DNA of 64,000 nt from Bryobacterales bacterium. Lineage in GTDB: Bacteria > Acidobacteriota > Terriglobia > Bryobacterales > UBA6623. Of the stretch, positions 34,855 to 37,260 are shown piece by piece. A program made the position numbers and the translations under genes. Every line of letters starts with the position of its first letter. Position 1 is the stretch's first letter. The stretch is taken from positions 6,856,241 to 6,920,240 of the forward strand of contig OZ244172.1 of the NCBI GenBank assembly GCA_965216545.1. Direction: 5' to 3'. The notes under the pieces were generated by a model that saw only the letters and a list, made by a program, of their open reading frames with translations, made no database searches and was not told where the DNA came from.

Positions 34855-37260
34855 CTAGCCCGGCGCGGGCCGGCGGTCCCTCACCCGATCGACGAACTCC
34901 TCGAGCTTGCGGGCGGTGGGGCCGGAGTTCTCCGGGTAGAGGCCATGGTCGGAGACCGGCGCCGGGACCTCGTACCAAGTCGCATCGGCCGGAGTCAGCC
35001 GCCGCCAGTAGGCTAATGTTTCTTGCCACACCTGGTCATAGGGCGGGGGCTTGACAAACAGTGCGGTGGGGCCGGAGTAGGGGCGCGGATCGAACCCCGT
35101 CAGAGCGCCGCGGTTTGCCTCGGTCAGCCGAATCCGGCGGACCTCCACTTCCGATCGCTCGAAGGCGTTGCCGCGGAGCGCGCCACGAATCGCTACGCCA
35201 AGCTTATCTCGCAGGTATCGCCATCGGTCCGCGCCGCGCTGCTCACGCATGGCGTCCCAATAGAGCCGCAACCGGGCGTGCACGAAGGCGGCTTTCGCGT
35301 CCGCCATCCCGGTGGCGGCGGGCTCGTCGGACCCGATGGCGGGCGGGAAAATCAAGGCCAGCCCGGCGGGCGGCGAGCCGGCCGCGGCCAGCCGGCTCGC
35401 CATCTCAAAGGCGACGGCGGCGCCCCAACAAACACCCCCGAGGAAGAACTCCTCGCCTGCCAAGGGGCGCACGGCGTCGAGGAAGTACTCCACGATGCGG
35501 TCCAGGTCCGTCTCCGGTTCCTGCTTGTCATAGAGGCCCTTGGGCTCAAGGCCGAAGACGGGCTGGTCGGGCCCCAGCTCGCGCGTCACGTCGATCAGCA
35601 TGGCCGGATCGCCCGGCGGCGCCAGGAACAGGGGCGGCCGCGAGCCTTCCGAGCGCAACTCGAACAGGCCGGCGGGAAGCGGCGGGCGATGCTCGCCGGC
35701 TTCCTCCAGCAGGGCCGCGAGATCACGCGCCGTCCCGCCTTCGAGCAAGGCCGAGAACGGCGGCCTCCGCCCCAGCCGCTGCTCAATCGCCAAGTAGGCC
35801 TGCGCCGCCTGCAGCGAGGAGCCGCCAAGCGCGAAGAATTCGTCGTCGGGGCCGGCCTCGGGACGATTGAGCGCCTCCCGCCAAATCGCAACCACCGTGT
35901 CCAGGGTCGATGTCGACTCGGGCGCGGCAGCCGGCGCCCGCTGCTCTGCCCGAGCTCTCGACTCCGCCGAACCCAGCGCGCTGAGCGTTCCGCCGGCGTG
36001 GACGCAAAGGTCGCCGCAAGCCTGCGCCAGCCCGTCGAGCAACGCTTGCGCTCGCGACGGCTCGAGACGCGACGGGTCGAACGTCACGCCGAGACGTTGC
36101 GCGCCGTCATCGACGAGAAACATCGCCGCGTAGGCGGAGTCCAACCCGCCGCCGACGGCCTCGATGCGCACCCCGGGCCAGTCGAACAGTTTCGCGGCGG
36201 GCGAGCCCGTCAGCAACAGTACGTCGAAGAGCGGGCGGCTTAGCGGAAGGTCGCTCCACTGGTGGATCTGGGCGATCGACACGTGGCCAAAGGCCGCGCG
36301 CTTCGCCTGCGCCGCCTGCAGGCTAGCCAGCCATTCGCGCACCGGGCTATCGGGCCGAAGCCTCACCCGGACCGGCAGGTTGTTGATGAACGTGCCCAAG
36401 ATGGACTCGACTCCGGCGAGATCGGGCGGCCGGCCGGAGACGGTGAGCCCGAAGGCGATGTCATTGCGCCCGGTCTCGCGCGCCAGCAGAAGCGCCATCG
36501 CGGCTTGGATCACGGTTCCCAAGCTCACGCCGGCGCCGGCTGCCAGTGCACGCAGCTTTTCGCACAACCCGGCCGCCAACTCGCGCTCCGCCCGCTCGGT
36601 CGCGCCCTGCGTCGAGCGGCCCGCCTCGCCCGGGCTCGCCAGGCTGGGCTCGGCAAACCCCCGCAACGAGGCCCGCCAAAATTCTTCGGCAGCTCGCGCG
36701 TCCTGGCCATCCAGCCAATCGACGTAGCGGCGATAGGGCGCGGGGTCAGGCAAGGAATCGTCGCCGCTGTAGAGCGCTCGGAGCTCGCCGAAGAGCGGAT
36801 CGAGGCACCAGCGGTCGAGGATCAGGTGATGGTTGCTCCAGACCAGCGTCCAATCGGTTTCGCCGGTTCGAATCAGCCACAGCCGCATCAGCGGCGGCCA
36901 GCGCAGGTCGAAGCGACGCCGGCGCTCCGCCTCGAGCAAGCTTTCGAGCTCGAGCTCGCGCTCCTCCGGCGTCAGCTCGCGGTGGTCGAGCTGCTCGAGC
37001 GGGACGGTCCCCTCGCGCCCCACAGCCTGCAGTGGCTGCTCCAGCCCGTCCCAAACGAACGCCGTACGCAGGATCGAGTGGCGTTGCACGACCCGGTTCC
37101 AAGCCCTCTCGAAGGCTTCGACGTCCAGCTCCCCGGAGATGCGGTAGACGAACCGGCTCGCCAGCGCGCTCGCCTCGACGGCGCTGCGCTCGTGCAACAA
37201 CATCAGTTGCTGCATCGGCGTCAGCGGATACGCGTCTTCGAGATTGCGCCGTCCGGACAT
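34855..37260 (-). CDS. NRPS termination protein: condensation - carrier (T) - thioesterase, with no A domain
   Basis: C domain: YPLTPMQQLMLLHE... and HHLILDRW (HHxxxD). T domain: DEFFALGGSSLQAAQ. TE: PPLFLAPPG...FFLGGVCWGAAVAFEMASRL...SDHGLY. Confidence 0.9.
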   Translation of the reverse strand: MSGRRNLEDAYPLTPMQQLMLLHERSAVEASALASRFVYRISGELDVEAFERAWNRVVQRHSILRTAFVWDGLEQPLQAVGREGTVPLEQLDHRELTPEERELELESLLEAERRRRFDLRWPPLMRLWLIRTGETDWTLVWSNHHLILDRWCLDPLFGELRALYSGDDSLPDPAPYRRYVDWLDGQDARAAEEFWRASLRGFAEPSLASPGEAGRSTQGATERAERELAAGLCEKLRALAAGAGVSLGTVIQAAMALLLARETGRNDIAFGLTVSGRPPDLAGVESILGTFINNLPVRVRLRPDSPVREWLASLQAAQAKRAAFGHVSIAQIHQWSDLPLSRPLFDVLLLTGSPAAKLFDWPGVRIEAVGGGLDSAYAAMFLVDDGAQRLGVTFDPSRLEPSRAQALLDGLAQACGDLCVHAGGTLSALGSAESRARAEQRAPAAAPESTSTLDTVVAIWREALNRPEAGPDDEFFALGGSSLQAAQAYLAIEQRLGRRPPFSALLEGGTARDLAALLEEAGEHRPPLPAGLFELRSEGSRPPLFLAPPGDPAMLIDVTRELGPDQPVFGLEPKGLYDKQEPETDLDRIVEYFLDAVRPLAGEEFFLGGVCWGAAVAFEMASRLAAAGSPPAGLALIFPPAIGSDEPAATGMADAKAAFVHARLRLYWDAMREQRGADRWRYLRDKLGVAIRGALRGNAFERSEVEVRRIRLTEANRGALTGFDPRPYSGPTALFVKPPPYDQVWQETLAYWRRLTPADATWYEVPAPVSDHGLYPENSGPTARKLEEFVDRVRDRRPAPG

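What the first reader, a model, noticed from the sequence alone, without database searches (positions are those of the whole stretch)
35380..35480. Releasing thioesterase has Cys instead of Ser at the nucleophile position (GVCWG)
In the TE domain of the C-T-TE protein, the nucleophile-elbow region reads EEFFLGGVCWGAAVAFEMASRL. Type-I TEs normally read LGGWSFGGxVAFEMA. The residue aligned with the catalytic Ser is Cys (TGT, plus-strand coordinates 35428-35430, residue 611). A downstream SDHGLY supplies the likely His. From established knowledge, Cys-TEs are rare. The characterised examples I recall (ObiF beta-lactone formation, SulM beta-lactam formation) catalyse strained-ring-forming release. 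By inference, product release here may be non-canonical.
Basis: partly seen in the sequence, partly recalled or inferred. Interest (0 to 1): 0.7.

Follow-up and report, generated by a model that had tools for sequence, protein, structure and literature searches.

The report
Cysteine thioesterase with rearranged catalytic triad
The release domain of this peptide-making enzyme really does use a cysteine where most relatives use a serine; this is a known minor enzyme class and the norm among its uncultured-bacteria relatives, and what is unusual is that the histidine and aspartate that normally assist the nucleophile are missing from their usual positions.

Summary
Gene 34855-37260 (minus strand) encodes an 801-aa C-T-TE protein. 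Residue 611 is Cys (TGT, 35428-35430) and sits in the nucleophile elbow GVCWG. It aligns with the catalytic Ser of Vlm2 and the catalytic Cys of AB3403. In a confident AlphaFold model it lies between strand beta5 and the following helix.

It is not a sequencing error. An independent metagenome ortholog (58% identity) has the same TGT codon. Of the 150 nearest cluster representatives, 125 have Cys at this position.

- Cys-type TEs are a recognised minority (about 2% of known TEs).
- Characterised examples include macrolactam cyclases as well as the beta-lactone and beta-lactam formers.
- The nearest solved relative is AB3403, not ObiF or SulM.
- The usual acid position after beta6 is Phe638.
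- The usual His position is Val769.
- A candidate Asp742 after beta7 is Asn in the ortholog.

The wider clade mostly has Asp at the canonical His position. Among the C-T-TE-length Cys-type members, 0 of 32 have His there.

Best reading: this is a functional Cys-type chain-release domain with a non-canonical base and acid arrangement. The release chemistry is unresolved.

The parts
34855..37260 (-). Gene for the 801-aa terminal NRPS protein, C-T-TE with no A domain
   Evidence: ORF list and translation. Pfam Condensation, PP-binding and Thioesterase. An identical 801-aa protein, P0225, is on a 6.93-Mb NCBI/ENA contig.
36217..37239 (-). Condensation domain, residues 8-348, with HHLILD at residue 144
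   Evidence: Pfam PF00668, E = 1.6e-61. Motif position.
35707..35901 (-). Carrier (T) domain, residues 454-518, with LGGSSL; the attachment Ser is probably Ser482
   Evidence: Pfam PF00550, E = 3.7e-12. Motif.
34858..35673 (-). [quoted passage not shown]
   Evidence: Pfam PF00975 covers only the N-terminal half. AlphaFold2 model pLDDT 92.8. Foldseek top hits are Vlm2, SkyXY, AB3403 and tautomycetin TE, E about 1e-13.
35422..35436 (-). Nucleophile elbow G609-V-C611-W-G613; the Cys611 codon TGT is at 35428-35430
   Evidence: Aligned to Vlm2 Ser and AB3403 Cys. G609 and G613 are invariant and Cys is 89% in 132 relatives.
35347..35349 (-). Phe638, at the canonical 'position I' acid site directly after beta6
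   Evidence: AB3403 and Vlm2 have Asp here. Cys-type relatives have D 83 and E 24 of 117, and Ser-type relatives have D 14 of 14. Strand 633-637 precedes it in the model. Only the query and P0076 have Phe.
35035..35037 (-). Asp742, in the loop after beta7: candidate 'position II' acid, 30 residues before His772
   Evidence: Model strand 732-736, then loop, then helix from 743. The Asp-to-His spacing is 30 in ObiF1 and in SulM. The residue is Asn in ortholog P0076.
34954..34956 (-). Val769, the column of the canonical catalytic His (PGxH)
   Evidence: Aligned to the AB3403 catalytic His. Ser-type relatives have H in 13 of 14. Cys-type relatives have D 77, N 15 and H 14 of 117. The family profile places its Asp on the AB3403 His.
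34945..34947 (-). His772 in S-D-H-G-L-Y: the only His in the post-beta8 loop, three residues past the canonical position
   Evidence: Conserved in P0076 (SDHGLF). The family has Asp or Glu in this column, 69 of 117. The loop has lower model confidence, about 82.
37292..38446 (-). HupE_UreJ_2 family membrane protein, co-clustered
   Evidence: Pfam PF13795, E = 9.6e-44. 74% identical ortholog in L007. The same family lies next to C-T-TE genes in L009 and L010.
38443..39597 (-). Ornithine cyclodeaminase / mu-crystallin family enzyme
   Evidence: Pfam PF02423, E = 8.4e-58. NCBIfam ornithine cyclodeaminase is the best hit but scores below its cut-off. 69% identical ortholog in L007.
39615..41324 (+). 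Free-standing adenylation enzyme (A0); the true start is probably near 39744
   Evidence: Pfam AMP-binding. TIGR01733 scores above its cut-off. The L007 ortholog aligns from residue 44.
41321..41563 (+). Free-standing 80-aa carrier protein (T0), with GMLDSMD
   Evidence: ORF. 75% identical ortholog in L007, called PP-binding (weak).
41547..45641 (+). C-A-T module whose A domain is interrupted by a PP-loop domain
   Evidence: Pfam. The insert matches the TIGR03573 WbuX-like amidotransferase, E = 6e-26.
45412..50076 (+). C-A-T-E module; the ORF is listed from its first TTG and the true start is probably near 45658
   Evidence: Pfam shows two Condensation-type stretches. The second carries HHLGIDVLSW and FNYLG, which are epimerase-type motifs by my reading. 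The L007 ortholog aligns from residue 83.
32668..34419 (+). Glycosyltransferase convergent with the C-T-TE gene and conserved in the orthologous cluster; homology starts near 33043
   Evidence: Pfam EryCIII-like_C and UDPGT. 61% identical to the gene downstream of C-T-TE in L007.

Best explanation
The C-terminal domain of the C-T-TE protein is a functional type-I thioesterase of the Cys-type subclass.

Proposed mechanism:
- Cys611 takes the finished chain from the phosphopantetheine arm of the adjacent carrier domain by thioester exchange (inferred).
- This forms a thioester acyl-enzyme, which is then resolved to release the product (inferred).

What differs from characterised Cys-TEs (AB3403, MacB, ObiF, SulM) is that the helper residues are not where they normally are:
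- The acid site after beta6 is Phe638 (shown).
- The canonical His site is Val769 (shown).
- The most likely general base is His772, three residues downstream in the post-beta8 loop (inferred).
- His772 may be oriented by Asp742 after beta7, or by the neighbouring Asp771 (speculative).

Place in the assembly line:
- The protein is the A-less last module of a small assembly line: A0, T0, C-A(PP-loop)-T, C-A-T-E, C-T-TE (shown).
- Its carrier must therefore be loaded in trans (inferred).

The release chemistry (hydrolysis, cyclisation or transfer to an acceptor) cannot be decided from sequence.
For: Cys611 as the nucleophile:
- It is aligned to the Vlm2 Ser and the AB3403 Cys.
- It sits between beta5 and the following helix in a pLDDT 92.8 model.
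- The fold matches NRPS and PKS TEs at E about 1e-13.

Selection on the site:
- The 22-residue elbow is identical, and the codon is TGT, in the ortholog that is 58% identical overall.
- TE identity equals C-domain identity between orthologs, 59% each.
- GxCxG is invariant or nearly so in 132 relatives.

The non-canonical helper residues:
- His772 and Asp771 are conserved in the ortholog.
- The family keeps an acid in the His772 column in 69 of 117 Cys-type members, so that column is constrained.
- Phe638 and Val769 occupy the canonical acid and His columns.
- A Cys-TE tolerates loss of the acid: MacB-TE D116S remains active (PMC13288461).

Assembly-line context:
- The cluster is syntenic in L007.
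- The same 3-A, 4-T, C-T-TE layout is seen in L009, and probably in L008, where one module appears split across two genes.
Against: - No coordinates were available, so the Cys611-His772 distance in the model could not be measured.
- The His772 loop has lower confidence, about 82.
- Asp742 is Asn in the ortholog.
- Two of the three canonical triad positions are hydrophobic, which could also mean reduced or lost hydrolase activity.
- The loop after beta3, which normally contributes to the oxyanion hole (my assignment, not tested), is shortened and changed: PP--GDPA against the family's PGIGGNV.
- No experiment exists for any member of this clade.
Confidence: 0.55

Rival explanations
1. One reading: an ObiF/SulM-like Cys-TE that releases the product by forming a strained four-membered ring (beta-lactone or beta-lactam). 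It would use a 'RifR-like' triad with the acid after beta7.
For: - The nucleophile is Cys.
- The residue after beta6 is not an acid. It is Phe638 here and Gly1173 in ObiF1.
- Asp742 lies in the loop after beta7, and His772 follows exactly 30 residues later. ObiF1 has Asp1254 and His1284, and SulM has Asp2926 and His2956.
Against: - Asp742 is Asn in the only close ortholog.
- The loops after beta7 and beta8 are each about 3 residues longer than in SulM (SulM sequence compared by eye with the strand boundaries).
- The SulM Gln-Cys-Asn motif is absent; the query has Val-Cys-Trp.
- ObiF1 is only a weak N-terminal profile hit (E = 2e-6) and SulM is not among the 60 listed hits, whereas AB3403 scores E = 7.8e-24 over the full domain.
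- Neither ObiF1 nor SulM is in the Foldseek top 50.
- None of the three A-domain specificity codes I extracted resembles Thr, Ser or Dap codes. The codes are DLFYLALVCK, DLTKIGEVGK and DSALVAEVWK. The extraction is; the comparison codes are from memory.
- Other Cys-TEs make macrolactams.
Confidence: 0.1
2. The TE-like domain has lost classical hydrolase or cyclase catalysis and is degenerate or repurposed. Cys611 would serve only as a thioester way-station or transfer site, or the domain would be structural. Actual release would then depend on an external nucleophile or another protein of the cluster.
For: - Both canonical helper positions are hydrophobic, Phe638 and Val769.
- In the wider clade the canonical His column is Asp in 77 and Asn in 15 of 117 Cys-type members.
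- None of the 32 C-T-TE-length Cys-type members has His there.
- The clusters carry conserved membrane proteins: HupE_UreJ_2, and in some loci a Polysacc_synt flippase or Acyl_transf_3. These could be acceptors or exporters.
Against: - GxCxG and several other columns are strongly conserved: E619 98%, W752 97%, R663 89%.
- The domain is as conserved as the C domain between orthologs.
- The query and its ortholog do carry a conserved His in the active-site loop.
- No alternative release enzyme, such as a reductase or a type II TE, was seen in the cluster.
Confidence: 0.25
3. The Cys is an artefact: a sequencing or assembly error in a Ser codon.
For: TGT is the rarer Cys codon in this gene, 1 TGT against 4 TGC.
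Against: - An independent assembly of a 58%-identical ortholog has TGT at the same position.
- 119 of 133 sequences covering the full TE have Cys.
- The NCBI/ENA record of the same genome gives an identical protein.
Confidence: 0.01

Closest known systems
AB3403 (ABBFA_003403) termination module TE, Acinetobacter baumannii, PDB 4ZXH/4ZXI
   Same: - It is the best PDB match by sequence: E = 6e-7 with the single sequence and E = 7.8e-24 over the whole domain with the family profile. It is also among the top Foldseek hits.
- It has a Cys nucleophile in the same elbow, GGWCFGG.
[quoted passage not shown]
- Its product is uncharacterised.
   Different: - AB3403 keeps the canonical Asp after beta6 (IVMID) and the canonical PGDH histidine. 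The window protein has Phe638 and Val769 there.
- AB3403 is C-A-T-TE. The window protein has no A domain.
ObiF1 TE (obafluorin beta-lactone synthase, PDB 6N8E) and SulM TE (sulfazecin monobactam, PDB 8W2C)
   Same: - Cys nucleophile.
- A non-acid residue after beta6.
- The acid, or a candidate acid, lies after beta7 with a 30-residue spacing to the His.
   Different: - They are only distantly related: a weak partial hit for ObiF1 and none listed for SulM.
- Asp742 is not conserved in the ortholog.
- The SulM QCN motif is absent.
- His772 is displaced from the GxH position, whereas SulM has GIGH.
- No evidence was found for a beta-hydroxy or beta-amino C-terminal residue.
MacB-TE / polymyxin-type Cys-dependent macrolactam cyclases
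   Same: - Cys-type TE.
- The Cys is essential, and the acid position is tolerant to substitution: D116S remains active (PMC13288461).
   Different: - These enzymes have a complete canonical Cys-His-Asp triad with the acid after beta6, and they sit in C-A-T-TE modules of large lipopeptide synthetases.
Uncharacterised clade of about 800-aa C-T-TE proteins from Acidobacteriota, Verrucomicrobiota, Methylomirabilota and other MAGs (for example P0077, P0097, P0229)
   Same: - Same C-T-TE architecture.
- Same G-x-C-W-G-A elbow.
- Same lid and conserved R663, N716, Y723 and W752.
- Same cluster type, with a free-standing A, a small T and often a HupE_UreJ_2 protein.
   Different: - Typical members have Asp after beta6 and the loop PGxD(S/T)GDA(I/L)S, with Asp rather than His at the canonical His column.
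- The window protein and P0076 have Phe after beta6 and S-D-H-G, and a shortened PP..GDP loop in place of PGIGGN.

Membership tests
Type-I thioesterase domain of NRPS/PKS (PF00975, alpha/beta-hydrolase) | Alpha/beta-hydrolase core with an inserted lid, fused C-terminal to a carrier domain | tested here: met
   Pfam PF00975 scores 35.6 bits against a cut-off of 26.4. The AlphaFold2 model has pLDDT 92.8, strands in canonical order and three lid helices. Foldseek matches Vlm2, SkyXY, AB3403 and TMC TEs at E about 1e-13. The T domain lies directly upstream.
Type-I thioesterase domain of NRPS/PKS (PF00975, alpha/beta-hydrolase) | Nucleophile elbow G-x-(S/C)-x-G after beta5 | tested here: met
   G609-V-C611-W-G613 is aligned to the Vlm2 Ser and the AB3403 Cys. 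It lies after strand 606-610 in the model.
Type-I thioesterase domain of NRPS/PKS (PF00975, alpha/beta-hydrolase) | Catalytic His in the G-x-H motif after beta8 | tested here: not met
   The canonical column is Val769. A His, His772, exists three residues later in the same loop, but its geometry could not be checked.
Type-I thioesterase domain of NRPS/PKS (PF00975, alpha/beta-hydrolase) | Catalytic Asp directly after beta6 (position I) | tested here: not met
   The residue is Phe638.
Cys-type TE subclass (AB3403, MacB/polymyxin, ObiF, SulM) | Cys replaces Ser as the acyl-enzyme nucleophile and is conserved among orthologs | tested here: met
Cys-type TE subclass (AB3403, MacB/polymyxin, ObiF, SulM) | Cys is required for acyl-enzyme formation and release | not testable with these tools
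   This needs C611S and C611A mutants in a reconstituted system.
Beta-lactone / beta-lactam-forming Cys-TEs (ObiF/SulM type) | Acid relocated to the loop after beta7 (position II), hydrogen-bonded to the catalytic His, with a non-acid after beta6 | tested here: inconclusive
   The non-acid after beta6 is met (Phe638). Asp742 sits after beta7, 30 residues before His772. However, it is Asn in the ortholog, and no coordinates were available to test hydrogen bonding.
Beta-lactone / beta-lactam-forming Cys-TEs (ObiF/SulM type) | SulM-type Gln-Cys-Asn motif around the nucleophile (a criterion used for monobactam TEs in PMC11298585) | tested here: not met
   The sequence is Val-Cys-Trp.
Beta-lactone / beta-lactam-forming Cys-TEs (ObiF/SulM type) | C-terminal residue of the chain carries a beta-hydroxyl, beta-amino or sulfamate nucleophile | tested here: inconclusive
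   The three A-domain codes extracted by motif are DLFYLALVCK, DLTKIGEVGK (Asn-like) and DSALVAEVWK. They do not resemble Thr, Ser or Dap codes as I recall them. Which A domain loads the terminal carrier is unknown.
Beta-lactone / beta-lactam-forming Cys-TEs (ObiF/SulM type) | Closer to ObiF/SulM than to other TEs by sequence or fold | tested here: not met
   ObiF1 scores E = 2e-6 over the N-terminal half only, and SulM is not listed. AB3403 scores E = 7.8e-24. Neither ObiF1 nor SulM is in the Foldseek top 50.

The most novel reading that the evidence does not exclude
A widespread, uncharacterised clade of NRPS termination domains from uncultured phyla may have abandoned the classical Ser/Cys-His-Asp triad.
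- Most of these domains sit in A-less C-T-TE proteins.
- They keep an invariant GxCxG cysteine but carry Asp (PGxD-S/T-G-D) where every characterised TE has the catalytic His.
- This implies a different chemistry of chain release. One possibility is carboxylate-assisted thioester relay to an external acceptor. Another is a metal-dependent site, given the co-clustered HupE/UreJ-like membrane protein.
- The window protein and its one ortholog would be a sub-branch that lost two of those acids (Phe638, and Val769 in the window copy) and acquired a new His three residues downstream. That would be an independent reinvention of a Cys-His pair.
Probability: 0.2. Interest if true: 0.75.

Novelty: new variant of a known kind. 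Interest (0 to 1): 0.5.

Why it matters
Cys-type thioesterases are sought as cyclisation biocatalysts and as markers for unusual release chemistry such as beta-lactones and monobactams. This case shows that 'Cys at the elbow' alone is a poor predictor. The domain's nearest solved relative is the uncharacterised AB3403, and in its own clade Cys is the norm.

The more informative signal is the rest of the active site. Here both canonical helper positions are hydrophobic, and the wider clade replaces the catalytic His by Asp.

If these domains are active, they define a TE active-site arrangement that I did not find described in the papers searched. They would also give an entry point to a conserved, glycosyltransferase-associated small-NRPS cluster type. 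That cluster type is found in Acidobacteriota, Verrucomicrobiota and Methylomirabilota MAGs, and its product is unknown.

Tried and rejected
- **Sequencing error:** rejected. An independent ortholog has the same TGT codon, and Cys is conserved across the family.
- **Source genome and taxon:**
  - A scan of genome contigs with the protein found only relatives about 30% identical in MAGs.
  - Exact look-ups of the C-T-TE and PGK proteins in the contig index found nothing.
  - Cluster look-ups show that five of the seven window proteins tested are unnamed singleton clusters at 90% identity on one 6.93-Mb NCBI/ENA contig. The other two sequences, translated from the ORF lister's first start codons, are not in the collection.
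  - The organism stays unidentified.
- **Triad geometry:** the structure tool returns pLDDT and secondary structure only. No coordinate file is exposed, so Cys-His and His-Asp distances could not be measured.
- **Direct alignment to ObiF and SulM:**
  - They are not retrieved by phmmer at E <= 1.
  - ObiF1 is only partly retrieved by the family profile.
  - The SulM construct sequence was recovered from the paper's supplement, with OCR noise, and compared by eye only.
- **Literature:** I searched for His-less Cys-TEs, for HupE-associated NRPS clusters, and for A domains interrupted by an amidotransferase. Nothing relevant was found.
- **First homolog search:** the word-index search with the 280-aa TE alone returned only proteins of 488 aa or shorter and missed the full-length orthologs. 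Re-querying with the full protein and the exhaustive representative search fixed this.
- **A-domain substrates:** specificity codes were extracted by motif anchoring and checked against my memory of the EntF code. They are not a validated predictor output, so substrate calls are tentative.
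Full report
**1. The observation**

The region 35380-35480 lies inside a minus-strand ORF, 34855-37260, that encodes an 801-aa protein. Pfam finds Condensation (8-348), PP-binding (454-518) and Thioesterase (560-649, the N-terminal half of the profile).

- The string EEFFLGGVCWGAAVAFEMASRL is at residues 603-624.
- Cys611 is encoded by TGT at plus-strand 35428-35430.
- SDHGLY is at residues 770-775.

**2. Is Cys611 the nucleophile-elbow residue?**

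Yes.

- phmmer against PDB aligns GGVCWGAAVAFEMA with Vlm2 GGHSLGGHIAFYLA, which carries the catalytic Ser. It also aligns it with AB3403 GGWCFGGAIAYEIS, which carries a Cys.
- I ran AlphaFold2 on residues 521-801 with a 105-sequence alignment. The model has mean pLDDT 92.8 and pTM 0.90.
- Its strand order in protein numbering is: beta5 606-610, Cys611, helix 612-626, beta6 633-637, three lid helices (652-672, 677-695, 701-719), beta7 732-736, beta8 761-764, C-terminal helix 776-796.
- Foldseek against PDB returns NRPS and PKS thioesterases: Vlm2, SkyXY, AB3403 and tautomycetin TE, at E about 1e-13 and TM about 0.6-0.7.

**3. Error or chance?**

Neither.

- The same protein is present in a public NCBI/ENA record on a 6.93-Mb contig (P0225).
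- Its only close relative, P0076, is 58% identical and comes from an ENA metagenome contig (L007). It has the identical LGGVCWGAAVAFEMASRLAAAG stretch and also uses TGT.
- An exhaustive HMMER search of 1.84 billion cluster representatives found 9989 relatives. Of the best 150, 125 have Cys in this column.
- Of the query plus 132 relatives that cover the full TE, 119 have Cys and 14 have Ser.
- The TE is as conserved between the two orthologs as the C domain, 59% each.

**4. The rest of the active site**

- *Acid after beta6 ('position I').* This column is Asp in AB3403, Vlm2 and all 14 Ser-type relatives, and Asp or Glu in 107 of 117 Cys-type relatives. In the query it is Phe638, and only the query and P0076 have Phe.
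- *Canonical catalytic His (PGxH after beta8).* This column is His in 13 of 14 Ser-type relatives and aligns to the AB3403 His. In the query it is Val769.
It is conserved in P0076 (SDHGLF). It lies in the same post-beta8 loop, where model confidence drops to about 82.
- *A possible alternative acid.* Asp742 sits in the loop after beta7 ('position II'), exactly 30 residues before His772. The same spacing occurs in ObiF1 (Asp1254 and His1284) and SulM (Asp2926 and His2956), where the acid is relocated after beta7 (PMC6668435; PMC11298585). However, Asp742 is Asn in P0076. Both loops are about three residues longer than in SulM; I compared the sequence from the SulM supplement by eye.

No coordinates are exposed by the tools. 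I therefore could not test whether His772 reaches Cys611.

**5. The clade**

- The nearest relatives are mostly proteins of about 800 aa with the same C-T-TE architecture. The related loci found in the genome collection come from Acidobacteriota, Verrucomicrobiota, Methylomirabilota and Thermoanaerobaculia MAGs.
- Their consensus is G-(I/V)-C-W-G-A, then L-x-L-x-D-P, then P-G-x-D-(S/T)-G-D-A-(I/L)-S.
- The canonical His column is Asp in 77, Asn in 15 and His in only 14 of 117 Cys-type members.
- Among Cys-type members of C-T-TE length (740-860 aa), 0 of 32 have His there.
- A profile of this clade aligns over the whole domain to AB3403 (E = 7.8e-24) and places the clade's Asp on the AB3403 catalytic His.
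- The window protein and P0076 form a sub-branch. They have Phe after beta6, His at the column where the clade has its second Asp (G-D-A), and a shortened PP..GDP loop in place of PGIGGN.

**6. Genomic context**

The cluster is syntenic between the window and L007:

| Component | Identity between window and L007 |
|---|---|
| Glycosyltransferase | 61% |
| C-T-TE | 58% |
| HupE_UreJ_2 membrane protein | 74% |
| OCD-family enzyme | 69% |
| Free-standing A | 74% |
| 80-aa carrier | 75% |
| C-A-T with a PP-loop insert in the A domain | 70% |
| C-A-T-E | 62% |

- There are three A domains for four carriers, so the terminal carrier must be loaded in trans (inference).
- Typical clade members sit in similar clusters, with a free-standing A, a small T and C-A-T modules. 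Two of the three examined also have a HupE_UreJ_2 protein.
- The AB3403 pathway likewise uses a free-standing A that loads an independent carrier (PMC10510592).

**7. Comparison with known Cys-TEs**

- The literature describes Cys-type TEs as about 2% of known TEs. It includes the macolacin (and related polymyxin) macrolactam cyclase and the uncharacterised AB3403 besides ObiF and SulM. MacB-TE tolerates D116S at the acid position (PMC13288461; PMC11298585).
- The inference 'Cys, therefore strained ring' is thus not compelled.
- By sequence and fold the window TE is nearest to AB3403. ObiF1 is a weak partial hit, and SulM is not among the 60 listed hits.
- The SulM QCN motif is absent.
- The A-domain codes I extracted by motif are DLFYLALVCK, DLTKIGEVGK (Asn-like) and DSALVAEVWK. 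They give no sign of a beta-hydroxy or beta-amino residue. This is a tentative reading from memory of reference codes.

**8. Verdict**

- **Best explanation (confidence 0.55).** This is a functional Cys-type release domain. Cys611 forms the acyl-enzyme, and His772 is the probable but non-canonical base. The release chemistry is undetermined.
- **Rivals.** A repurposed or degenerate domain used as a thioester relay (0.25). ObiF/SulM-like four-membered-ring formation (0.10). A sequencing artefact (0.01).
- **Novelty.** A new variant of a known kind.
- **Interest.** Moderate (0.5). The Cys itself is not surprising. The loss of both canonical helper positions is unusual and, as far as my searches went, undescribed. 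The same holds for the clade-wide replacement of the catalytic His by Asp.

Noticed in passing
window 44118-45161 (+), inside gene 41547-45641; the SGGKDS motif starts at 44334: The A domain of the C-A-T module is interrupted by an insert of about 350 aa. The insert has an N-terminal CxxC...CxxC and a PP-loop (LYSGGKDSTYAL). It matches the TIGR03573 WbuX N-acetyl-sugar amidotransferase over nearly the full profile (E = 6e-26, below the family cut-off) and only faintly matches Pfam ThiI and QueC. The host A domain has an Asn-like code, DLTKIGEVGK. The insert is conserved in the L007 ortholog. One literature search combining 'interrupted adenylation domain' with 'amidotransferase' returned no paper.
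   Followed up: partly
Relatives P0077-P0224 (not in the window); columns equivalent to window residues 638, 769-772: Most Cys-type relatives have Asp (77 of 117) or Asn (15 of 117) at the canonical catalytic-His column. The loop is a conserved PGxD(S/T)GDA(I/L)S. None of the 32 C-T-TE-length Cys-type members has His there. All but one of the Ser-type relatives keep PGxH.
   Followed up: partly
window 37292-38446 (-): A HupE_UreJ_2 family membrane protein sits between the OCD gene and the C-T-TE gene. It is conserved in L007 (74% identity). The same family lies next to C-T-TE genes in two of three other loci examined (L009, L010). Its role, whether exporter, metal transporter or acceptor, is unknown.
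   Followed up: partly
window 39615-50076 (+) and 34855-37260 (-): The assembly line has three A domains but four carrier domains: free-standing A plus T, then C-A-T, C-A-T-E and an A-less C-T-TE. The same imbalance is seen in L007 and L009, and probably in L008. The terminal carrier must be loaded in trans, and by which A domain is unknown.
   Followed up: partly
window 32668-34419 (+); homology begins near 33043: A glycosyltransferase (EryCIII-like C-terminal, UDPGT) is convergent with the C-T-TE gene. It is conserved at 61% in the orthologous cluster of L007, which suggests that the peptide product is glycosylated.
   Followed up: partly
window 49000-50076 (+), the C-terminal domain of gene 45412-50076: The last domain of the third module carries HHLGIDVLSW and LFNYLGK, which I read as epimerase-type motifs. 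The C domain of the C-T-TE protein would then accept a D-configured donor. This call is based on motifs only.
   Followed up: no
whole window (for example PGK 54187-55371, RF1 25681-26760): Even housekeeping proteins (PGK, RF1) are unnamed singleton clusters at 90% identity in a 15-billion-protein collection. The genome is absent from the GTDB species-representative set searched. The source is a poorly sampled high-GC (67%) lineage with a contig of at least 6.93 Mb.
   Followed up: partly
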